This document shows positions 40,976 to 48,612 of a stretch of 50,607 nucleotides of DNA, in pieces; position 1 is the stretch's first letter, and the number at the start of each line of letters is the position of its first letter. The stretch is from Salipiger bermudensis (GTDB lineage: Archaea; Thermoplasmatota; Poseidoniia; Poseidoniales; Poseidoniaceae): assembly GCA_964227855.1 (NCBI GenBank), contig CAXQWT010000009.1:1-50607 (forward strand). Reading direction: 5' to 3'. The notes below the pieces were generated by a model that saw nothing but the letters and a program-made list of their open reading frames with translations, was not told the DNA's origin and did not search any database. Made by a program: the position numbers and the translations under genes.

Positions 40976-41093
40976 TTATACGTCTTTTTTCGGAAATTTA
41001 AGAGCAAAGAAATTATTTTTCCGGAGTGGCAAGTTTAACAGAAATCGGCCCGCTGAATTCAAAGAGCGCCTTTACTTGGGATGGATGAGAGAC

Positions 41094-42344
41094 ATGTCAG
41101 ATTACATTTCAGGTCTTGAAGCTCGTATGGTTTTGGACAGTCGTGGCAATCCAACTATCGAGGTCGATTGCTATGTTGATGGTCGACTAGCAGGCAGAGC
41201 GATGGTGCCTTCTGGGGCATCAACAGGTCAACACGAAGCACTTGAAATGCGAGACGGTAATCAGAGCAAATGGCTTGGCAAGGGTGTTGATACGGCCGTT
41301 GATAATGTTCGGCAATCAATTTCGGAAGTTCTTGTAGGCATGCCTGTGGATGAACAACGACTGATCGATGAAGCAATGATCGAACTCGATGGAACATCCA
41401 ACAAATCCAATCTCGGTGCAAACGCAATGCTTGGAGCATCACTGGCTTGTCTCCACGCAGGGGCAGCGTCTCACGAACTACCTCTTTGGAAGTACATAGG
41501 TGGCGTCGCTGGCGGGCAAATGCCTGTACCAATGCTCAATATTCTCAATGGTGGGGCGCATGCTGCTTCCAATGTTGATGTTCAAGAATTCATGGTTATG
41601 CCGCACGGCTTCGACTCGTTCAAAGAAGGGCTACGCGCAGGAGTTGAAATCTACCACCAACTCAAGCGTGAACTGAAGAACGATGGCCTTCTTGGAGGTG
41701 TAGGCGATGAAGGAGGTTTTGCACCCAATCTTGGAGCGAACGAAGATGGCCTGAAGTACATGGTTCGTGCCATTGAAGGGGCAGGCTACTCGACAGATGA
41801 TATCGGAATCGCTCTGGATGTTGCAGCCACTGAATTTGAGAAATCCGACGGCTATCACATGGATGGCAAGGTTCTCTCTTCGGAACAAATGATCGATGTG
41901 TACGGTGAGTGGTTGGATGCGTACCCTATTTTGTCCATTGAGGATGGTTTGGGTGAAAACGACTGGACTGGCTGGACGGCGTTGACGAAGCAAGAAGGAC
42001 ACAGAGTTCAGATTGTTGGAGATGATCTTTTCGTTACTCAATCCGAACGATTGGCTCAAGGAATTGATATCGGAGCAGCCAATGCATTGCTGGTGAAGGT
42101 CAACCAGGTTGGAACTGTGACTGAAACACTCGAAGCGATGGATCTAGCGACGTCAAACGGTTACCGCAATGTCGTCTCCCATCGAAGTGGTGAAACTGAA
42201 GACACAACAATCGCAGATCTCGCCGTTGGAACACGGGCAGGACAAATCAAAACTGGGGCGCCTGCACGTTCCGATAGAGTGTCGAAATACAATCAATTAC
42301 TCCGGATTTCGGAAGATGTGGAAGATTATCGTTCCCCTTTCTAA
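41094..42344 (+). CDS. eno: Enolase
   Basis: [45 protein letters not shown]. Confidence 0.98.
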
Positions 42345-42367
42345 CATTTATGAATCCATACACTGGG

Positions 42368-42373
42368 TTATAA
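42368..42373 (+). promoter_or_regulatory. Putative TATA box (near-leaderless promoter) of the fasciclin-cupredoxin gene
   Basis: TTATAA 23-28 nt upstream of ATG 42396. Confidence 0.45.
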
Positions 42374-42395: not shown

Positions 42396-43925
42396 ATGCG
42401 CAAATCAATCGTGTATACCTTCGTAGCCTGCCTTCTAATCGCCGCAATGCCGTACTCAGTCACTGCTGACGCATCAGAAGATATCCCAACTAATGCCGCT
42501 GCAACTGGAGTCCATGACTCACTCGTCGCTGCGCTTACGCATGCAAATCTCGTGGCAACTCTTCAGGGTGATGGACCTTTCACGGTCTTCGCACCAACCG
42601 ATCAAGCCTTCATCGATGCCGGTATCGACCTCTCAACATTTGATACTCCAGAAGAAAATGAGACGTTAGCAGACATTCTGCTTTATCACGTCCTTTCTGG
42701 TGACGTCGACGCCTCTCAAGTTACTGACGGACTTTCAGTCGTTATGGCGAACGGCGACAAAGCCTCGTTCACTGTCACCAACGACAGTGTGATGATCGGT
42801 GACGCAACCGTCACAACAGCAGACGTGGAAGCCAGCAACGGTATTATCCATGTTATTGACAAAGTCCTCATGCCACCGCCTGGTGACATTTGCTACAACG
42901 TCATCTCTCACACAATCATCCCAGGAGCAACAAACCTGATTTGCAACTCTCACATGTTTGTAGAAAACTACACCATGGGTGGCCAAACCATCACAGGGTG
43001 CTACAACACAGTGACACATCAAGTTAGCAACATCAGCGCTGCAGAATGTGGTGCCTACATGTGGACTCCAGCGGTTAACATCGTTATGACCGCTCAGGCA
43101 ACAACCATCCACACAGCACTCGTTGCTGCTCTCGGTGTAGCAGACCTTGTCACAACCCTAACTGGTGATACAGATTACACAGTCTTCGCTCCTAGTGACG
43201 ATGCATTCGCAGCAGCTGGTATCGATCTAGACACCTTCGATACCGACGAAGAGATTGCAGTACTTGCTGACATCCTCCTCTATCACGTAGTTGCAGGTAC
43301 CACGCTTTCCACAGATTTGGCTGCTGGTGCAAACACGGTAACTGCAGCTAACGGTGATGAGTTGACGATCACAGTCTCCGATACCGGCGTTGCCGTTGGT
43401 GCAGATGGCGCAACAGTCACGCTCGCAGACGTTCCAGCGTCCAACGGTGTCATTCACGTCATTGACAAGGTCCTCACGCCTCCAGCAGACGATCCATTCG
43501 CAGGAATTGATTGTGCAGCAACCATTGGTCTCACTTCTGATGGATACGGATTCACGCCATCATCCGTGAGCATCGACGTTGGACAAACCGTTTGCTGGTC
43601 GTGGACTGATTCCGCAATGGCACACAACGTCAAGGAAGTTGACGGATTCCAGTCAAGCACATACGTTGATGGTGGAGTAACATCCGGCGCACCTGCAACC
43701 ACAGTAGCATTCCACCACACATTCACTGAGAACCAGACGTTCTACTATGCATGTGAACCTCACATCTCAATGAAGATGCACGGTGAAATCATTGTTGGTG
43801 ACGGAGGAGTAGAGCCCACCTCAGATACAAAAGAATCTGAAGACGCTCCAGGATTCATTGCATCGACAATGGTCGTAGCAATCCTCGGCGCGGTCCTCTT
43901 TATGGGCCGCCGCCGAAGCCTCTGA
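42396..43925 (+). CDS. Cell-surface protein: two fasciclin (FAS1) domains, type-1 copper cupredoxin, PGF-CTERM-like anchor
   Basis: Signal peptide; FTVFAPTD/YTVFAPSD and ASNGIIHVIDKVL twice; AHNV...YACEPHISMKM; APGF-TM-RRR tail. Confidence 0.9.
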   Translation: MRKSIVYTFVACLLIAAMPYSVTADASEDIPTNAAATGVHDSLVAALTHANLVATLQGDGPFTVFAPTDQAFIDAGIDLSTFDTPEENETLADILLYHVLSGDVDASQVTDGLSVVMANGDKASFTVTNDSVMIGDATVTTADVEASNGIIHVIDKVLMPPPGDICYNVISHTIIPGATNLICNSHMFVENYTMGGQTITGCYNTVTHQVSNISAAECGAYMWTPAVNIVMTAQATTIHTALVAALGVADLVTTLTGDTDYTVFAPSDDAFAAAGIDLDTFDTDEEIAVLADILLYHVVAGTTLSTDLAAGANTVTAANGDELTITVSDTGVAVGADGATVTLADVPASNGVIHVIDKVLTPPADDPFAGIDCAATIGLTSDGYGFTPSSVSIDVGQTVCWSWTDSAMAHNVKEVDGFQSSTYVDGGVTSGAPATTVAFHHTFTENQTFYYACEPHISMKMHGEIIVGDGGVEPTSDTKESEDAPGFIASTMVVAILGAVLFMGRRRSL

Positions 43926-43937
43926 TGACGTGATACG

Positions 43938-44846
43938 TTGAACTACAAGCGTCTGATGGTGGCCACCGCCTTGGTGGCCACCATCGTTCTTGCTGCCTGG
44001 ACGTACCTCGTGGTGTCCTATGATTCACCGCTCGGTACCGACAATGTTGTGGTTGTCGAACGAAGTTCTACCTCAAACGGTTCGAACGATGTTCTAGCGA
44101 CTCTCTCCTTCCAAGATGGAGCGGAAGATCTCGACTGGGCATCGATGCTGATCGAGATTGAAGTTAATGAGCAATCGTATACCTGTTCTTTTGGAAGTCA
44201 ATCGATTGATGCTGATGGGAGCGAGAAAGCGAACTCACGGTTGTCATCTGATGGTGTAACGTTCTCCACCACCATCGATGCAACCTCAGAGGAAACCTTC
44301 ACGTATTTTTCAGTACCAATACAACGAGAGGCCAATGAATCGATGTACACCGTTCGAGCATCGAAGACCGATGTGTTCCTTAGTGAAGGGACAAAATGGA
44401 TGTTTTTGCCAGACACTGCCTTCCAAGACGTAACCTCAGTCAATGAATCCGAGATGTCAAATTCAACGACCGATCGTCTAGAATGGTACACATACGACCT
44501 TGCCGCACACCGAATTACCCCAAATCAAGGGACCTACGTTCTTCTACAAGGAGATCTTCTCTACAAGATGCAATTCCTGAGTTACTACAACGAAAATGAT
44601 GAGAGCAGATACATTTCAATGCTCACATCCGCACTCATCCCTGAAGAACACCCAGCTTTGCAGGACCCAACTTTGGTCATACCATCGCCCTGTTTGATTG
44701 AAACATCAGGGGATTCGGTTCAATGGAACGCATCAGAATCGATTACCCTACGTGAACAAGATGCGAACATCTGCGGGGAAAACTGCGCAATGGGCATTAC
44801 AATCACATACGAAATGATTGCGGTGAAAACTGAAAATACCGAATGA
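43938..44846 (+). CDS. Membrane-anchored archaeal pilin-like protein with an inserted HmuY-like domain
   Basis: N-terminal TM; LDWASMLIEI...C and C...WNASESITLRE...C flanks; central TIDATSEETFTYFS ... EWYTYDLAAHRITP..GTYVL...YKMQFLSYY; TTG start. Confidence 0.65.
   Translation: MNYKRLMVATALVATIVLAAWTYLVVSYDSPLGTDNVVVVERSSTSNGSNDVLATLSFQDGAEDLDWASMLIEIEVNEQSYTCSFGSQSIDADGSEKANSRLSSDGVTFSTTIDATSEETFTYFSVPIQREANESMYTVRASKTDVFLSEGTKWMFLPDTAFQDVTSVNESEMSNSTTDRLEWYTYDLAAHRITPNQGTYVLLQGDLLYKMQFLSYYNENDESRYISMLTSALIPEEHPALQDPTLVIPSPCLIETSGDSVQWNASESITLREQDANICGENCAMGITITYEMIAVKTENTE
43955..43985. repeat. Perfect 13-bp inverted repeat with self-palindromic arms
   Basis: GATGGTGGCCACC-GCCTT-GGTGGCCACCATC. 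Confidence 0.85.
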
Positions 44847-44869
44847 GTTGAGCAACCTCTGGAGATAGT

Positions 44870-45907
44870 ATGCTGCGCCACCTACCACCCATTGCGTGTG
44901 TGTTGGTACTTCTCCTCATCGCACGTCAGATTTACCCGTATTCTTCCTTCAATTCACCATCGGTGGATGATGGGTTTGAGATTGAGGTCGTTGCCACAAA
45001 TCTCGGGGGTCCAACATGTTTGGAGTGGTTTGATGAATCAACGCTTGTCGTTTGTGATCGAGACGGTGGACAAATTTACACTCTGGATATGAACATGAGC
45101 AAAACCGTTCTCGTAAGCGGCTTAGACCGACCTCACGACGTTGCAATTACCGATTTGGATCTGTTTGTGAGTGAGGCAGGAGAACTTAGCAGGTACACTC
45201 ACGACGGACAATTAGGCCAAATTGGCAATAAGACCGTTCTTGTTTCGAACGTTCCCACTGGAAACCACCAAACAAACGCCGTCAACATCCTGCCCAATGG
45301 CACACTTGTCTGGCATAGCGGCTCGACTTGCAACATCTGCGTTGAAGACGATAAACGCAACGGAGCTCTGCTTTGGGTCAACGGATCAACGGGAGAACAT
45401 GGTATTCTCGCAAGTGGTGTTCGGAACTCATTTGACGGCGTCTGGGTTCCCAACGTTGGATATGTCTTCACCGACAATGGACGCGATTGGGAAGGAGATC
45501 ACCCAGATGAAGAACTCAATCTCTTATCGGAAGGGGGCGATTACGGGTGGCCAGATGATGATCCTTCAAACCCAGTTCCAGCGGGAAGTATTGCTCCAAT
45601 AGCATCATGGACACCACATACTTCAATGAACGGAGTGGCACTTCGACCATCAAATTCAGATTTACCTGGTGGAAATTCTACAATCTACGCTACAGTATAT
45701 GGTTCTTGGAACACGATTCTTCCTCAAGGCCATGAAATTGTTCGAATCGACTTGAATTCAACAGGTGAAACAGTGGTTGGAACAACTTCTGTCTTTGCTG
45801 AAGATGTGGGAACGCCCCTTCCAATTACATTCCACCCAAATGGCGATCTCTACTTTGCAGTGTTTGGCTCAAACGGAAAGCTGTACAAGATTAGCGCAAC
45901 AACATGA
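44870..45907 (+). CDS. PQQ-dependent sugar (glucose/sorbosone) dehydrogenase family, membrane-anchored beta-propeller
   Basis: GNHQT, GSTCNICVE, ASGVRNS, TDNGRD, DEELN, GGDYGWP, PNGDLYF. Confidence 0.85.
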   Translation: MLRHLPPIACVLVLLLIARQIYPYSSFNSPSVDDGFEIEVVATNLGGPTCLEWFDESTLVVCDRDGGQIYTLDMNMSKTVLVSGLDRPHDVAITDLDLFVSEAGELSRYTHDGQLGQIGNKTVLVSNVPTGNHQTNAVNILPNGTLVWHSGSTCNICVEDDKRNGALLWVNGSTGEHGILASGVRNSFDGVWVPNVGYVFTDNGRDWEGDHPDEELNLLSEGGDYGWPDDDPSNPVPAGSIAPIASWTPHTSMNGVALRPSNSDLPGGNSTIYATVYGSWNTILPQGHEIVRIDLNSTGETVVGTTSVFAEDVGTPLPITFHPNGDLYFAVFGSNGKLYKISATT

Positions 45908-45929: not shown

Positions 45930-47069
45930 TCACATAATCGCCGAAAGCCATTGCTCCAATCGATTAATTCCTTCATGTATATTCTCAAGAGAAGTGGCGT
46001 AAGAAAGGCGAACTAGACCTTCTCCTCCTTGCATGAGTGAACCTGGGATTAGCTGAACACGTGCTTCTGCTAGAGCGCGATCTGCGAATTCAATATCGGT
46101 CATTCCCGTTTCTGTGATGTCAGCGAGAATGTAAAACGCCCCTTCAGGTTCTGGGGCATTGACTCCCGGTAAACTGTTGAGGCCGGCGTGCATAACCATT
46201 CGACGATTAGCAAATGAATCAGCCATCTCTTGAGTTTCTTCTTCCAATCCAAGTGCTACTTCACCAGCAGGCATGAGGAACGTAGGAATGTGTGTGGCGG
46301 CCGAAGTTTGACAAGTCTTGACAGCTTCCATAAACTCGGATGGCCCAGTAATCCAACCCATACGCCATCCTGTCATTGCCCATCCCTTTGACCATCCTCC
46401 AATGGTAATGGTTCGGCCTTTCCCTCCTGCGTGGTTGATTGGTGAAGTGTAAGCGTGATCTGCCCAGACAAGCGTTGAGTAGATCATGTCATCAACGATC
46501 CACAAGTCATGCTTTTCTGCGAACGAAGCAATCTTTTCAATTTCCTCAGGTGTGTAAACTGCCCCAGTAGGATTGTTCGGAGAATTCAACATGATTGCTT
46601 TTGTGCGTTCAGTTACGCTTGCTTCAAGCGCTTCGAAATCAGGGTGATAGGATGGTCGGGATACCGGCACGTGAACGGGGACTCCATCAAAAATACGAAT
46701 CATTCCGTCGTAAGAGGGCCATGCAGGAGCCAAGAGAAGCACTTCATCTCCCGGAGTAATGGTTGCCATCAAAGCATAGAGTAGAGCCTGCTTACAACCC
46801 GGTGTAACAACAACATCCTCGGGGTTTGAATCGATGTTCAATGTCTTCAAGTGTTTTGAAACGGCATCACAAAGTGAAATACTACCTTGAGATCGTGTAT
46901 AAGCAGTTTCACCACGTTGTAACGCATCAATTGCAGATTGAACAACAGTTTCAGGAGTATCAAAATCCGGTTGGCCAACAGTGAATCGAATTACATCAGG
47001 AGATGGCGGTGCAAGATAAGCAGCAAAACCACGACCGATGTGTGAAAAAGCGGGACTAATTTCTGGCAT
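45930..47069 (-). CDS. Class I/II PLP aminotransferase (aspartate aminotransferase-like)
   Basis: GQPDFDTP, GCKQAL, NSPNNPTG, DDMIY, SKGWAMTGWRMG, PEGAFY. Confidence 0.95.
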   Translation of the reverse strand: MPEISPAFSHIGRGFAAYLAPPSPDVIRFTVGQPDFDTPETVVQSAIDALQRGETAYTRSQGSISLCDAVSKHLKTLNIDSNPEDVVVTPGCKQALLYALMATITPGDEVLLLAPAWPSYDGMIRIFDGVPVHVPVSRPSYHPDFEALEASVTERTKAIMLNSPNNPTGAVYTPEEIEKIASFAEKHDLWIVDDMIYSTLVWADHAYTSPINHAGGKGRTITIGGWSKGWAMTGWRMGWITGPSEFMEAVKTCQTSAATHIPTFLMPAGEVALGLEEETQEMADSFANRRMVMHAGLNSLPGVNAPEPEGAFYILADITETGMTDIEFADRALAEARVQLIPGSLMQGGEGLVRLSYATSLENIHEGINRLEQWLSAIM

Positions 47070-47148
47070 TGTTCCACCGGTCTGTATCCTTGCGAATCCA
47101 CAATTCCTCTTCAAGACTTTCCAACAGTTTGAGCTTTGGTTTCATTTT

Positions 47149-47818: not shown

Positions 47819-47871
47819 CAATCGAACCTTTACAAACGGTGGACTGCACCTAATATTGATGGGTGAGCCGC

Positions 47872-48612
47872 ATGAAGCAAAAGATAGAAACAAACAAGAA
47901 CGATTCTTATTATATGAAAAAGAAGGAGGCGGAACAGATGGAAATGAATGCTGAGTCCCTTTCCACGAAAAAAAAGAACGAACGCTTCCTTGAAGCACTC
48001 AAGACATTAAGCGATCAAGATCCTCAATCGTTCTCAGAAATCGCGCCAGAACTTCTCCAACGCTGTGCGTATTATTGGAGAGGTTCTGATCCTTTTTTCT
48101 CAACCAAATTAAATTCATGGCTTTCCTATGATATGATGTGGAAGCCATTTGGAGAAATTATTCCCGACGATGCAAATTTTTCAAAACGCATAGAGTCCGA
48201 TGCATTTGACATAAAAATGTACAGTGGCTCTACAAAAGACCTCCTCGAATCACTACAAACCCGATTCCCGGACGATTTTAATCAGTGGGATGCGTCAATT
48301 CGCAATCAATTTATTATCCTCGGGATGATTGCAATGGGTCGAGAAAAAGGAGAATATCAAGGAGCACTTGTTCACAGGCTTGGCCTAGGTTCGGGGGATG
48401 TTCGGATCAAAGGCTCGAACGTCATCCGTGCAGCGAAAATTGCTCTTGCGCGATTGGCCAAGGACAACGGGGCCGACCTCTTTTCGCCGGCATCTGGTCA
48501 TGGTGTCGAACGTGTTCATAGGATGTCCAGTGCAAAACTTGCTGAAACGATCGAAAGGTTCGTCCTTTCACATTCTGCATCTGTCCTTCTTCCTCCTCCT
48601 CGTAGTCTTTGA
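47872..48612 (+). CDS. Hypothetical protein
   Basis: About 246-aa ORF, GGTGA SD before ATG 47872. Confidence 0.7.
   Translation: MKQKIETNKNDSYYMKKKEAEQMEMNAESLSTKKKNERFLEALKTLSDQDPQSFSEIAPELLQRCAYYWRGSDPFFSTKLNSWLSYDMMWKPFGEIIPDDANFSKRIESDAFDIKMYSGSTKDLLESLQTRFPDDFNQWDASIRNQFIILGMIAMGREKGEYQGALVHRLGLGSGDVRIKGSNVIRAAKIALARLAKDNGADLFSPASGHGVERVHRMSSAKLAETIERFVLSHSASVLLPPPRSL

What the first reader, a model, noticed from the sequence alone, without database searches (positions are those of the whole stretch)
42396..45907. Candidate cell-surface redox module: FAS1-cupredoxin + HmuY-pilin + PQQ sugar dehydrogenase
Seen: three co-oriented, tightly spaced genes (gaps of 12 and 23 nt) behind one TATA box, all with export or anchor signals. 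Established: FAS1 domains mediate adhesion, type-1 cupredoxins (halocyanin/plastocyanin class, H...C-x2-H-x4-M) are one-electron carriers, GSDH-family PQQ enzymes pass electrons to external carriers, and HmuY proteins bind haem. Inference: an extracellular 'attach-and-oxidise' system in which a surface dehydrogenase oxidises sugars at particles and electrons pass through the tethered cupredoxin, with haem capture alongside. I know of no description of this combination in marine archaea.
Basis: partly seen in the sequence, partly recalled or inferred. Interest (0 to 1): 0.8.

Follow-up and report, generated by a model that had tools for sequence, protein, structure and literature searches.

The report
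Archaeal surface cupredoxin, haem-binder, dehydrogenase cluster
Three neighbouring genes of a marine Group II archaeon encode cell-surface proteins (a copper electron carrier on an adhesion stalk, a relative of bacterial haem-capturing proteins, and a sugar-dehydrogenase-like enzyme) that recur side by side in related genera and may help these cells scavenge haem and oxidise sugars outside the cell.

Summary
Three co-oriented ORFs (42396-43925, 43938-44846, 44870-45907; gaps 12 and 23 nt) follow one TTATAA box that is invariant in 12 of 12 aligned relatives.

Gene 1 is 2xFAS1 + type-1 cupredoxin + PGF-CTERM anchor. Gene 2 has no Pfam hit itself but is an HmuY-family protein by fold (Z 10.3-13.5) and by profile search. 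I saw no canonical pilin signal by eye; none was tested. Gene 3 is a six-bladed propeller nearest fungal AA12 PQQ dehydrogenases.

Across 201 Poseidoniaceae genomes the trio is not a fixed operon, but its members keep re-associating:
- cupredoxin gene + HmuY-like gene adjacent in 57 of 72 genomes of other genera;
- cupredoxin directly upstream of the dehydrogenase in 25 of 97;
- HmuY-like gene beside the dehydrogenase in 30 of 58, in two orientations.

The HmuY-like gene is found mostly where porphobilinogen synthase is not (odds ratio about 0.1 across four genera). This is not controlled for relatedness.

Electron transfer, PQQ use and haem binding remain untested. Two PQQ-clamping arginines are not conserved, and no PQQ synthesis gene was found.

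Verdict: a real, recurrent surface gene neighbourhood. The redox-module reading is partly supported. Haem capture gains comparative support.

The parts
42358..42373 (+). Conserved promoter-like element: ATACA (42358-42362) and TATA box TTATAA (42368-42373), 22 nt upstream of the gene 1 ATG
   Evidence: Invariant in 12 of 12 aligned enolase/gene-1 spacers of the genus while flanking spacer bases vary. Sequence read. Promoter function is inferred, not shown.
42396..43925 (+). Gene 1: secreted 2xFAS1 + type-1 cupredoxin protein with C-terminal PGF-CTERM anchor (509 aa)
   Evidence: Pfam Fasciclin 2.5e-57 (2 stretches) and Copper-bind 5.4e-11. PDB sequence hits to TGFBIp/periostin FAS1 domains and to plastocyanin/amicyanin. 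534 homologue clusters; the 120 listed all carry PF02469 + PF00127.
42480..42881 (+). FAS1 domain a (aa about 29-162)
   Evidence: Pfam best stretch 42-160. PDB alignments.
42882..43079 (+). Cys-rich linker (aa 163-228; Cys 166, 183, 202, 218), no known family
   Evidence: No Pfam match. Cys positions. Conserved at 42-62% identity in other genera and families.
43080..43487 (+). FAS1 domain b (aa about 229-364)
   Evidence: Second Fasciclin stretch. PDB alignments 254-361.
43491..43805 (+). Type-1 cupredoxin domain (aa 366-470); ligand set H410, C453, H456, M461
   Evidence: Copper-bind residues 380-467. C-x2-H-x4-M at 453. All four ligands, and C373/C400, invariant in 18 of 18. Halocyanin model TIGR03102 scores 51.9 bits, under its 93.8 cut-off.
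43842..43922 (+). PGF-CTERM-like sorting signal (PGF at aa 485-487, hydrophobic stretch, RRRSL)
   Evidence: TIGR04126 14.7 bits, under its 24.5 cut-off. P485, G486, F487, R505 and R506 invariant in 18 of 18. Archaeosortase A model TIGR04125 95.1 bits in the same genome.
43938..44846 (+). Gene 2: membrane-anchored HmuY-family protein (302 aa): N-terminal helix, Ig-like sandwich (aa about 35-95 and 240-300) with an inserted HmuY-like domain
   Evidence: AF2 model pLDDT 75.5. Foldseek's top 8 hits are all HmuY-family entries. VIA Z 10.3-13.5, rmsd 2.8-3.3 A over 124-140 residues for 8 HmuY-family entries; the next unrelated hit has Z 5.4. Profile search: 467 hits, and 10 of 10 distant hits tested carry Pfam HmuY.
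44220..44651 (+). HmuY-like domain (aa about 95-238) with invariant W183, Y184, Y186, D187, H191, K210, Y216, Y217
   Evidence: Model range 94-239. Motif shared with bacterial Pfam-HmuY proteins. H191 aligns with Met172, a haem-iron ligand of B. vulgatus Bvu. The residues are invariant in 15 of 15 homologues down to 29% identity.
44870..45907 (+). Gene 3: membrane-anchored six-bladed beta-propeller of the GSDH/AA12 (PQQ sugar dehydrogenase) superfamily (345 aa)
   Evidence: AF2 pLDDT 84.8, pTM 0.85. Foldseek top hits are TrAA12 6h7t and CcPDH 6jt5 (E 1e-15, TM 0.72-0.74), then Asd/sGDH. A profile of 20 homologues hits AA12 chains at 1.3e-8. Pfam GSDH 24.3 bits, under the 25 cut-off.

Best explanation
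The region is one probable transcription unit of a Poseidoniaceae (Marine Group IIa) archaeon. It encodes three proteins displayed on the outer face of the cell membrane.

1. Gene 1 is a lipid-anchored (PGF-CTERM/archaeosortase) protein. Its type-1 cupredoxin lies next to the membrane and its FAS1 domains project outward.
2. Gene 2 is a single-pass-anchored HmuY-family protein. It most likely binds haem, using invariant His191 as one iron ligand, and serves haem acquisition in lineages that cannot make tetrapyrroles.
3. Gene 3 is a single-pass-anchored AA12-like propeller. It most likely oxidises aldoses with scavenged PQQ, and the membrane-proximal cupredoxin is its most plausible electron acceptor on the way to the haem-copper oxidase.

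The three genes form a loose, recurrent neighbourhood rather than a fixed operon. The tightest unit is cupredoxin gene + HmuY-like gene. That unit, or the cupredoxin gene alone, has been placed or kept immediately upstream of the dehydrogenase in several genera.

Shown: gene structure, domain and fold identities, ligand conservation, gene-neighbourhood statistics, and the complementary distribution with hemB/hemC. Inferred: every biochemical step (copper, haem and PQQ binding, substrates, electron flow, attachment).
For: Identities.

Outer-face topology.

One conserved TATA box and gaps too short for separate promoters. Contigs from a library labelled metatranscriptomic (flagged 'probably DNA') bridge both gene junctions (records 3 and 7). 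This is compatible with co-transcription but is not proof.

Neighbourhood:
- In the genus, 15 of 15 loci with gene 2 have it directly before gene 3. Fourteen of those 15 have gene 1 directly before it; the fifteenth is cut by a contig end.
- The same order occurs in 3 of 3 sampled loci of genus g21.
- From listed rows for other genera: cupredoxin gene and HmuY-like gene are adjacent on one strand in 57 of 72 genomes holding both. The HmuY-like gene is beside the dehydrogenase in 30 of 58 (22 tandem, 8 divergent). The cupredoxin gene is directly upstream of the dehydrogenase in 25 of 97, plus 20 with gene 2 between.
- In genus g14 a cupredoxin + PGF-CTERM gene without FAS1 sits between enolase and the dehydrogenase: 8 of 8 by coordinates.

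Haem role:
- HmuY family and the position of His191.
- Gene 2 present versus ALAD present, by genus: g1 4/15/14/4, g21 3/23/13/3, g22 6/20/6/6, g23 7/16/15/4 (both / gene 2 only / ALAD only / neither). Odds ratios are 0.08, 0.03, 0.30 and 0.12, pooled 0.10.
- HemC follows ALAD on the same contigs.
- A remnant of the gene 2 3' end lies in the spacer of two gene-2-less, ALAD-positive genomes.
- The genome holds a haem-copper oxidase, but no ALAD or HemC was found.

Dehydrogenase competence: His133, Arg185-Asn186 and the G-S-W-N loop (W280, N281) match the catalytic His363, Arg430-Asn431 and Trp563-Asn564 of CcPDH.
Against: - No experiment or direct computation shows any binding or electron transfer.
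- The neighbourhood pattern can also arise from break-up of one ancestral cluster within a single family. The dehydrogenase tree is compatible with a single insertion.
- In 10 of 20 sampled loci (7 genera) enolase and the dehydrogenase are directly adjacent without a cupredoxin, and likewise in 3 of 9 loci of two other families. Ten neighbours of the dehydrogenase in other families showed no cupredoxin domain; six matched unrelated families and four matched none.
- No dehydrogenase-cupredoxin fusion was found; only two PEBP fusions appeared.
- CcPDH Arg273 aligns to T49. Arg621, and sGDH Arg406/408, map to T315/L317 on an alignment I reasoned by hand, which is less sure.
- Pfam GSDH is just under its cut-off.
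- No PqqC-family gene was found. The TIGR02111 control rang in no control genome.
- The first haem-ligand loop of HmuY/Bvu lies in an insertion that gene 2 lacks.
- The gene 2/ALAD pattern is not corrected for relatedness. On an enolase tree of the genus only 5 independent pairs exist, sign test p 0.5.
- Many genomes have neither gene 2 nor ALAD: genera g13, g16, g17 and g20, and 23 of 24 genomes of the two other families. Gene 2 cannot be the only route to haem.
- The genome has a second, stand-alone cupredoxin that could serve respiration.
Confidence: 0.5

Rival explanations
1. Three unrelated surface proteins. The stretch between enolase and the dehydrogenase-aminotransferase block is a variable slot for surface-protein genes, and the adjacencies are leftovers of common descent within one family. 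The cupredoxin serves ordinary respiration, the propeller and the HmuY-like protein act on their own, and co-transcription is incidental.
For: - The content of the slot varies: nothing, a cupredoxin, FAS1-cupredoxin, or FAS1-cupredoxin + HmuY-like gene.
- FAS1 copy number varies from 0 to about 4.
- Gene 2 diverges faster than its neighbours: 52-82% against 74-90% identity for full-length copies of gene 3 within the genus.
- In a single-contig genome of another family the cupredoxin and HmuY-like genes lie 250 kb apart, flanked by unrelated genes, and no dehydrogenase was found.
- The dehydrogenase is near-universal in the family (154 of 200) whatever its neighbours.
- The dehydrogenase tree allows a single insertion event.
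Against: - The cupredoxin/HmuY-like pair stays adjacent in 57 of 72 genomes across four other genera, also where it lies far from the dehydrogenase.
- The HmuY-like gene is beside the dehydrogenase in two different orientations.
- Each of the three pairs occurs without the third gene.
- There is one conserved TATA box and gaps of 12 and 23 nt.
Confidence: 0.28
2. A three-step extracellular electron chain analogous to fungal AA12-AA8-LPMO. The PQQ dehydrogenase passes electrons to haem held permanently by the HmuY-like beta-sandwich, which acts as a b-type cytochrome. These go on to the cupredoxin and then to the oxidase or an outside acceptor.
For: - Gene 3 is closest to AA12 enzymes. In fungi these hand electrons to a beta-sandwich haem b domain (AA8) and on to a copper enzyme (passages read).
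- Gene 2 is a beta-sandwich of a haem-binding family with an invariant His.
- All three pairwise adjacencies occur.
- The order of typical midpoint potentials (PQQ, then haem b, then blue copper) would allow this flow. That order is recalled knowledge, not a call.
Against: - Gene 2 is missing from many genomes that keep the cupredoxin gene directly upstream of the dehydrogenase: 7 loci in the genus and 12 genomes in g21.
- Its complementary distribution with ALAD fits scavenging, not a fixed cytochrome.
- Only one candidate iron ligand is conserved.
- HmuY relatives characterised so far are haem shuttles (abstracts and passages).
Confidence: 0.1
3. Gene 3 is not a PQQ enzyme. The propeller has lost the cofactor clamp and acts as a binding protein or uses another chemistry, so there is no redox link at all.
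For: - Pfam GSDH is under its cut-off.
- Arg273 of CcPDH aligns to T49, and the C-terminal arginine positions to T315/L317.
- No PQQ synthesis gene was found.
- The same fold includes the non-enzymatic HHIP.
- A family-specific C-x2-C (C154, C157) and C50/C62 have no counterpart in the residue lists I read.
Against: - The catalytic His, the Arg-Asn dyad and the G-S-W-N loop are invariant in 20 of 20 homologues down to 45% identity.
- PQQ-dependent enzymes are known in organisms that do not make PQQ (E. coli, fungi; passages).
- TrAA12's docked PQQ site names no C-terminal arginine either.
Confidence: 0.15

Closest known systems
Fungal AA12 PQQ-dependent pyranose dehydrogenases (CcPDH 6jt5/6jwf; TrAA12 6h7t) with their AA8 cytochrome b partner domain
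   Same: Six-bladed propeller; these are the best fold and profile matches of gene 3. Catalytic His, Arg-Asn(Asp) dyad and the G-S-W-N loop, which binds a PQQ carboxylate through main-chain amides, are kept. The enzyme is extracellular, the organism does not make PQQ, and electrons leave to a separate redox protein (passages).
   Different: About 18% identity. No hit to the AA12-type Pfam model was listed. Arg273 aligns to Thr and His560 to Tyr/Phe. There is no fused cytochrome or CBM. The protein is anchored by an N-terminal helix. The candidate partner is a cupredoxin encoded by a neighbouring gene. The host is an archaeon.
HmuY hemophore-like family of Bacteroidota (P. gingivalis HmuY 3h8t; B. 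vulgatus Bvu 3u22; Tfo; PinO; BfrB/C)
   Same: Same fold: Z 10.3-13.5 for 8 entries. Shared sequence motifs. His191 sits where Bvu has its iron ligand Met172. It is a surface-exposed protein.
   Different: The Pfam HmuY model does not reach its threshold on gene 2 or its orthologues. The loop carrying the first iron ligand (His134/Met145) is absent from the profile. The domain is inserted in an Ig-like sandwich. It is anchored by a transmembrane helix, not a lipoprotein. There is no TonB-dependent HmuR partner, as an archaeon has no outer membrane. Its conserved neighbour is a FAS1-cupredoxin gene.
Halocyanin/plastocyanin/amicyanin type-1 cupredoxins
   Same: H...C-x2-H-x4-M ligand set, invariant. 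Pfam Copper-bind is above its cut-off. It is membrane-tethered on the outer face like halocyanins. Amicyanin is a precedent for a cupredoxin that takes electrons from a quinoprotein dehydrogenase encoded nearby (recalled knowledge).
   Different: Under the cut-offs of the NCBIfam halocyanin, amicyanin, pseudoazurin and plastocyanin models. It is fused to 0-4 FAS1 domains and a Cys-rich linker and carries a PGF-CTERM signal. A separate 167-aa cupredoxin exists in the same genome.
Bacterial/archaeal soluble aldose sugar dehydrogenases (A. calcoaceticus sGDH 1c9u, E. coli Asd/YliI 2g8s, P. aerophilum 3a9g)
   Same: Same fold: Foldseek E 1e-13, TM 0.65-0.73 normalised to the model. Catalytic His and Arg-Asn are conserved. 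The DE-x-N...YGWP stretch aligns.
   Different: sGDH Lys377 and Arg406/408 have no counterpart by alignment. The protein is membrane-anchored rather than periplasmic and soluble.

Membership tests
Fasciclin (FAS1) domain, PF02469 | HMM score above the gathering cut-off | tested here: met
   192.8 bits against 22, two stretches. PDB FAS1 hits down to 3e-40.
Type-1 (blue) cupredoxin, PF00127 | HMM above cut-off and the four copper ligands His, Cys, His, Met | tested here: met
   43.2 bits against 21.2. H410, C453, H456, M461 present and invariant in 18 of 18.
Halocyanin subfamily (TIGR03102) | NCBIfam score above the curated cut-off | tested here: not met
   51.9 bits against 93.8. It works like a tethered halocyanin but is not filed as one.
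Type-1 (blue) cupredoxin | Binds copper and cycles Cu(I)/Cu(II) | not testable with these tools
   Needs purified protein.
PGF-CTERM / archaeosortase A substrates | C-terminal PGF motif, hydrophobic helix and basic tail; TIGR04126 above cut-off; ArtA in the genome | tested here: inconclusive
   The motif architecture is present and invariant in 18 of 18. TIGR04126 scores 14.7 bits against 24.5. ArtA model 95.1 bits against 75 in the genome.
HmuY family, PF14064 | Pfam HMM above cut-off on the protein itself | tested here: not met
   No hit at E up to 1. Orthologues score 17-23 bits against 27.
HmuY family | HmuY fold | tested here: met
   Z 10.3-13.5, rmsd 2.8-3.3 A, 124-140 residues for 8 HmuY-family entries. 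The next unrelated entry has Z 5.4. Foldseek's top 8 are all HmuY family.
HmuY family | Sequence homology by profile | tested here: met
   The gene 2 profile finds 467 proteins. Ten of 10 distant hits tested carry PF14064 above its cut-off. Shared motifs appear in the alignment.
HmuY family | Two axial haem-iron ligands (His134/His166 in HmuY; Met145/Met172 in Bvu) | tested here: inconclusive
   His191 aligns with Bvu Met172 and is invariant in 15 of 15. The first-ligand loop is an insertion missing from gene 2. The offset between chain index and published numbering was inferred by me.
HmuY family | Binds haem | not testable with these tools
   Needs protein. Indirect support is the complementary distribution with ALAD.
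GSDH, PF07995 / TIGR03606 (PQQ glucose/sorbosone dehydrogenases) | HMM above cut-off | tested here: not met
   PF07995 24.3 bits against 25. TIGR03606 38.6 bits against 434.55.
GSDH/AA12 superfamily | Six-bladed propeller fold | tested here: met
   pLDDT 84.8. Foldseek E 1e-15 to 1e-12, TM 0.65-0.74 normalised to the model, to AA12, Asd and sGDH.
GSDH/AA12 superfamily | Catalytic His and Arg-Asn(Asp) dyad at the PQQ carbonyls | tested here: met
   H133, R185 and N186 invariant in 20 of 20. H133 aligns with His363 of CcPDH and His153 of TrAA12. The dyad is assigned by motif, since the HMMER alignment did not cover it.
AA12 | PQQ carboxylate contacts: Arg273, His539, His560, Trp563-Asn564, Arg621 (CcPDH) | tested here: inconclusive
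   W280-N281 are kept. Arg273 aligns to T49 and His560 to Y277. His539 and Arg621 are not covered by a printed alignment. My hand mapping puts Arg621 at T315.
GSDH/AA12 superfamily | PQQ- and Ca-dependent sugar oxidation | not testable with these tools
   Needs enzyme. No PqqC-family gene was found in the 86.6%-complete genome.
Archaeal type IV pilin (class III signal peptide) | Short basic N-terminus, G/A/S at -1 of the cleavage site, then a hydrophobic helix | not tested
   No dedicated predictor was on hand. By eye the basic residues are followed by L or W, not G/A/S. An archaellin chain appears only at Foldseek rank 46, prob 0.23.

The most novel reading that the evidence does not exclude
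Poseidoniaceae carry a previously undescribed archaeal haem-acquisition system at the cell surface. It is a conserved two-gene unit of a FAS1-stalked, lipid-anchored cupredoxin and a membrane-anchored HmuY-like haem receptor, kept in lineages that lost tetrapyrrole synthesis. In several genera it is wired to an AA12-like PQQ dehydrogenase, so that sugar oxidation, copper and haem redox chemistry are coupled outside the cell. This would be redox-assisted haem capture, or a PQQ-haem-copper chain like fungal AA12-AA8-LPMO.
Probability: 0.2. Interest if true: 0.8.

Novelty: new variant of a known kind. Interest (0 to 1): 0.62.

Why it matters
Marine Group II archaea are abundant and uncultured. 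A genome survey has already flagged them as apparent haem auxotrophs (bioRxiv 10.1101/2021.01.11.426183; passages read). 'HmuY' does not occur in that paper's main text, and the 'heme uptake' and 'transporter' passages I read concern acI bacteria.

A surface HmuY-family protein that is present mostly where hemB/hemC were not found gives a concrete, testable candidate for haem acquisition. It also points to haem as a growth factor for cultivation attempts.

The FAS1-cupredoxin with PGF-CTERM is very common in marine metagenomes (534 clusters). It is annotated only as 'fasciclin domain protein' or 'TGF-beta-induced protein'. Recognising its copper centre and its conserved partners would correct that annotation.

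An archaeal AA12-like enzyme with a cupredoxin neighbour would extend the fungal picture of PQQ-driven extracellular electron transfer to planktonic archaea, and would bear on how they use dissolved sugars.

If the rivals are right, the cluster is a set of ordinary surface proteins and matters only for annotation.

Tried and rejected
- **Complex prediction**: gene 3 ectodomain (27-345, alignment A2) with the cupredoxin domain (366-472, alignment A3). Verdict 'no answer', score 0.00. This is no evidence either way.
- **Direct sequence searches of gene 2**: Pfam, NCBIfam and PDB gave nothing. A gene-2-only profile against PDB also gave nothing. The link needed fold search and a library-wide profile search.
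- **Longer fused forms of gene 3**: only two PEBP fusions, no cupredoxin or cytochrome fusion. The tool itself calls this weak evidence.
- **PQQ synthesis**: PF03070 gave no hit in the genome. TIGR02111 gave none either, but it rang in no control genome, so it says little. TIGR02109 gave only weak radical-SAM matches under the cut-off.
- **RNA evidence**: only contigs were available, not raw reads. X1 and X2 are flagged 'RNA? (probably DNA)'. X5 and X6 match at mostly 90-95% identity, so they are relatives. X1 had no cover over enolase and over most of gene 3.
- **Independent-pairs test on an enolase tree of the genus**: 5 pairs, p 0.5. It is underpowered, uses a single-gene tree, and several 'absent' calls sit at contig breaks (G002, G004, G010).
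- **My first reading, that the adjacency is confined to one genus**: rejected after the family-wide searches.
- **Dehydrogenase tree**: does not follow the family labels and could not be rooted, so the order of events (one insertion or several) stays open.
- **Literature**: no paper in the held library has 'Poseidoniales' + 'fasciclin', 'fasciclin' + 'Marine Group II' or 'heme auxotrophy' + 'Poseidoniales'. 'fasciclin' + 'cupredoxin' gave 42 papers; the 15 listed are on plants or fungi. Supplementary tables of PMC9723583 (transcription of Poseidoniales genes) could not be opened and may hold expression data for these genes.
- **Model coordinates**: not available to me, so pocket residues of genes 2 and 3 could not be inspected in 3D.

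Full report
**1. What is there**

The window holds three co-oriented ORFs exactly as described: 42396-43925 (509 aa), 43938-44846 (302 aa) and 44870-45907 (345 aa). They are separated by 12 and 23 nt.
- Upstream lies enolase, 41076-42344 (Pfam). Before that is a divergent Lrp/AsnC regulator.
- Downstream lies a convergent class I/II aminotransferase, 45930-47114, then a GNAT gene.
- The 51-nt spacer before gene 1 contains ATACA and TTATAA (42368-42373), 22 nt before the ATG. Both are invariant in 12 of 12 aligned loci of the genus while the rest of the spacer varies.
- Names attached to homologues place the organism in Candidatus Poseidoniaceae/Poseidoniales, Marine Group IIa.

**2. Gene 1**

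- Pfam finds two Fasciclin domains (2.5e-57) and a Copper-bind domain (5.4e-11).
- NCBIfam's halocyanin, amicyanin, pseudoazurin and plastocyanin models all match, but under their cut-offs.
- The ligand set H410, C453, H456, M461 (C-x2-H-x4-M) is present and invariant in 18 of 18 homologues.
- The C-terminus is PGF + hydrophobic stretch + RRRSL. It is invariant in the same alignment, although TIGR04126 scores under its cut-off. An archaeosortase A gene is present in the genome.
- The cupredoxin is only about 15 residues from the anchor signal. The copper centre should therefore sit near the membrane with the FAS1 domains projecting outward. This is inference.
- Between the FAS1 domains lies a 66-residue, four-Cys linker with no known family.
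- The FAS1 + Copper-bind architecture is common in marine data. There are 534 clusters at E up to 0.001, and all 120 listed carry both Pfam domains. Lengths of 281-763 aa reflect different FAS1 numbers. Names are generic.

**3. Gene 2**

No Pfam, NCBIfam or PDB sequence match exists for the protein itself. Its 194 close homologue clusters are unnamed or 'hypothetical'; the one taxon name given is Candidatus Poseidoniaceae.

Fold evidence:
- An AlphaFold2 model from 22 sequences has pLDDT 75.5.
- Foldseek's eight best PDB hits are all HmuY-family structures.
- VIA-align gives Z 10.3-13.5 (rmsd 2.8-3.3 A, 124-140 residues) for eight HmuY-family entries. The next, unrelated entry scores 5.4.
- The HmuY-like domain is residues about 95-238. 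It is inserted in an Ig-like sandwich made of residues about 35-95 and 240-300, behind an N-terminal helix.

Sequence evidence:
- A profile of the family against 1.84 billion representatives finds 467 proteins. Ten of 10 distant hits tested carry Pfam HmuY above its cut-off.
- The joint alignment shows shared motifs and six invariant residues: W183, Y186, D187, H191, Y216, Y217.
- In the HMMER alignment to B. vulgatus Bvu (3u22), His191 lies opposite the Met at chain index 154. A second Met lies at index 127. With an offset of 18 these are Met172 and Met145.
- A paper (abstract and passages read) names Met145 and Met172 as the haem-iron ligands, with His134/His166 in P. gingivalis HmuY.
- The first-ligand loop is an insertion that gene 2 lacks.
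- His191 and the motif are invariant in 15 of 15 homologues from four genera of the family and one genome of another family, down to 29% identity.

Haem binding is plausible but unproven. 'Pilin' has no support.

**4. Gene 3**

Pfam GSDH scores 24.3 bits, one bit under its cut-off.

Fold and profile evidence:
- The AF2 model (pLDDT 84.8, pTM 0.85) is a six-bladed propeller behind an N-terminal helix.
- Foldseek ranks the fungal AA12 enzymes TrAA12 and CcPDH first (E about 1e-15, TM 0.72-0.74). Next come Streptomyces, Thermus, Pyrobaculum and E. coli aldose dehydrogenases and Acinetobacter sGDH, then HHIP.
- A 20-sequence profile also hits AA12 chains best (1.3e-8).

Active-site residues, using the residue lists in the CcPDH and TrAA12 papers (passages read):
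- The catalytic His (His363/His153) aligns with invariant H133.
- The Arg-Asn dyad corresponds by motif to invariant R185-N186.
- The AA12-specific loop Trp563-Asn564 aligns with invariant W280-N281.
- Arg273 (TrAA12 Arg57) aligns with T49, and His560 with Y277.
- By my hand mapping, the C-terminal arginines of CcPDH and sGDH fall on T315/L317.
- The family has its own invariant C50/C62 and a near-invariant C154-x2-C157.

No PqqC-family gene was found in the 86.6%-complete genome. The papers note that E. coli and fungi use PQQ without making it.

I read gene 3 as a probable, not certain, PQQ enzyme.

**5. Neighbourhood, first pass**

Within the genus (36 other species genomes, which is the whole genus held):
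- Gene 2 is found in 18.
- All 15 fetched loci with gene 2 have it directly before gene 3. Fourteen have gene 1 before it; one is cut by a contig end.
- Six fetched loci, and a seventh by coordinates, have gene 1 directly before gene 3 without gene 2.
- Two of those (G009, G036) keep a 20-nt remnant of the gene 2 3' end in the spacer (90% identity, E 9e-4). Gene 2 was therefore lost there.

In two other families:
- Nine dehydrogenase loci show no cupredoxin or FAS1 hit. Three of them have the dehydrogenase beside enolase.
- Ten neighbours showed no cupredoxin domain. Six matched unrelated families (Dus, MarR, SufBD, HEAT repeats, DUF2240) and four matched no family.
- The single-contig genome G051 (91% complete) has the FAS1-cupredoxin at 254 kb and a 37%-identical gene 2 at 504 kb among fatty-acid genes. 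No dehydrogenase was found in it.

At this stage the cluster looked genus-specific.

**6. Neighbourhood, family-wide**

Sampling 200 further genomes of the same family (12 genera) changed that reading.

Presence:
- dehydrogenase in 154 of 200;
- gene 2 profile in 96 of 200, in genera g1, g19, g21, g22 and g23, with one weak hit in g15;
- cupredoxin + PGF part in 146 of 200.

Twenty loci from 11 other genera:
- enolase-dehydrogenase directly adjacent in 10 loci of 7 genera;
- enolase-cupredoxin-dehydrogenase in genus g14 (3 loci). That gene is a 181-aa signal peptide + Copper-bind + PGF-CTERM protein without FAS1;
- the full enolase/FAS1-cupredoxin/gene 2/dehydrogenase order in 3 of 3 loci of g21;
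- the dehydrogenase alone in 4 loci (g17, g23).

Eight g23 genomes have a 29-35%-identical gene 2 divergently adjacent to the dehydrogenase, with no cupredoxin within 5 kb. In G071, G067, G088 and G129 the FAS1-cupredoxin and gene 2 are adjacent far from the dehydrogenase. In G198 the FAS1-cupredoxin is directly upstream of the dehydrogenase and gene 2 is elsewhere.

Counting all listed rows for genera other than g1:

| Pair | Adjacent | Breakdown |
|---|---|---|
| cupredoxin gene + gene 2 | 57 of 72, same strand | g21 25/25, g22 22/23, g23 9/22, g19 1/2 |
| gene 2 + dehydrogenase | 30 of 58 | 22 tandem (g21), 8 divergent (g23) |
| cupredoxin gene + dehydrogenase | 25 of 97 directly | g14 8/8, g21 14, g23 3; 20 more with gene 2 between |

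Every pair therefore occurs without the third gene. The tightest unit is cupredoxin + HmuY-like gene.

This is what functional coupling predicts. It is also what the piecemeal break-up of one ancestral cluster inside a single family would leave. The dehydrogenase tree does not follow the family labels, cannot be rooted, and is compatible with a single insertion.

**7. Haem**

- Porphobilinogen synthase (ALAD) is found in 18 of 36 genus genomes, in 0 of 24 genomes of the two other families, and not in this genome.
- HemC follows ALAD on the same contigs: 17 of 36 genus genomes and 0 of 24.
- The genome does hold a haem-copper oxidase.

Gene 2 against ALAD, by genus:

| Genus | Both | Gene 2 only | ALAD only | Neither | Fisher p |
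|---|---|---|---|---|---|
| g1 | 4 | 15 | 14 | 4 | 9e-4 |
| g21 | 3 | 23 | 13 | 3 | 9e-6 |
| g22 | 6 | 20 | 6 | 6 | 0.14 |
| g23 | 7 | 16 | 15 | 4 | 2e-3 |

The Mantel-Haenszel odds ratio is 0.10. Incomplete genomes would bias towards 'both absent', that is, against this pattern.

Caveats:
- Relatives are not independent.
- On an enolase tree of the genus only 5 independent pairs exist, and the sign test gives p 0.5.
- Genera g13, g16, g17 and g20, and nearly all of the two other families, have neither gene. Gene 2 cannot be the only way to obtain haem.

Apparent haem auxotrophy of MG-II is already in print as a genome survey (bioRxiv 10.1101/2021.01.11.426183, passages read). HmuY is not mentioned there.

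**8. Transcription**

Only assembled contigs of public runs were available.
- In run X1 (labelled metatranscriptomic, flagged 'probably DNA'), near-identical contigs bridge the gene 1/gene 2 junction (43775-43996) and the gene 2/gene 3 junction (44639-45055).
- This is compatible with one transcript but does not show it.
- A paper on Poseidoniales transcription reports a highly transcribed halocyanin gene in the other family, Thalassarchaeaceae (passages read).

**9. Reading**

The gene structure and the four domain identities are solid. The proteins are ectoproteins.

The comparative data support a functional relation best for the FAS1-cupredoxin and the HmuY-like protein. Support is moderate for the cupredoxin and the dehydrogenase. 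The data favour haem acquisition over a fixed cytochrome role for gene 2, because gene 2 is dispensable where hem genes are present.

I give:
- the loose-module reading 0.5;
- unrelated neighbours 0.28;
- a strict PQQ-haem-copper chain 0.1.

Separately, I give 0.15 to the view that gene 3 is not a PQQ enzyme. This overlaps the others.

**10. Novelty**

All parts belong to known families. The following were not found described in the searches:
- a cupredoxin on a FAS1 stalk with PGF-CTERM;
- an archaeal, membrane-anchored HmuY-like protein as its conserved neighbour;
- an AA12-like enzyme next to them.

I rate it a new variant of a known kind, of real interest to people working on marine archaea and on haem and PQQ as shared public goods.

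Noticed in passing
window 42882-43079 (gene 1 aa 163-228): A 66-residue linker with four Cys between the two FAS1 domains has no Pfam family. It is conserved at 42-62% identity in other genera and families, and is duplicated in a genome of another family (G042).
   Followed up: partly
loci L013-L022, L043-L048, L077, L087-L089; proteins P0121-P0240: The number of FAS1 domains before the cupredoxin varies from 0 (genus g14) to about 4. It varies even between species of one genus (ORFs of 308 to 795 aa).
   Followed up: partly
G000:C11:17457-20378 (same genome, other contig): A giant FAS1-repeat protein (open frame about 1291 aa, at least 7 tandem FAS1 units at 59-67% identity to gene 1's first domain). 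It is also seen in many genus members.
   Followed up: no
L043 and L048 (G009, G036), spacer between the cupredoxin gene and the dehydrogenase: A 20-nt remnant of the 3' end of gene 2 (90% identity) marks a deletion of gene 2 in these two genomes.
   Followed up: yes
G036:C60:2407-3441; G084:C12:7611-8678; G095:C87:4275-5153; G168:C65:7636-8052: In-frame stops occur in otherwise full-length copies: 1 TAA in a dehydrogenase, 2 TGA in another, 1 TGA in a gene 2 copy, and 1 TGA in a cupredoxin gene. These may be pseudogenes or assembly errors.
   Followed up: no
61 genomes of the order and 201 of the family: ALAD and HemC were found in none of 24 genomes of the two other families, many over 90% complete. 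They are patchy (80 of 201) within Poseidoniaceae, although a haem-copper oxidase is present in this genome.
   Followed up: partly
G030:C56:493-8792: One contig carries a second, differently scoring ALAD and HemC and a 209-aa ORF that passes the Pfam HmuY cut-off. With 6% contamination reported, this contig may be foreign.
   Followed up: no
G000:C118:7083-7334 (locus L055 1339-1842, minus strand): A second, stand-alone 167-aa cupredoxin with a signal peptide and a C-terminal hydrophobic tail is a candidate general respiratory carrier.
   Followed up: partly
P0241, P0242: The only longer relatives of gene 3 found are fusions with a PEBP (YbhB/YbcL) domain. They also carry PF22807 and PF07995.
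   Followed up: no
loci L094-L101 (genus g23): A second, divergent type of gene 2 (29-35% identity) lies head-to-head with the dehydrogenase, about 120 nt apart. The spacer may hold a shared divergent promoter.
   Followed up: partly
loci L024-L026 (genomes of another family): ORFs of about 190 aa match only the N-terminal 90 residues of gene 2 (helix and first half of the Ig-like sandwich) at 31-33% identity. The anchor module may be shared with other ectoproteins.
   Followed up: no
window 47863-48612: A 249-aa ORF conserved at 70-96% identity across the genus, and 44% in genus g23, has no Pfam family.
   Followed up: no
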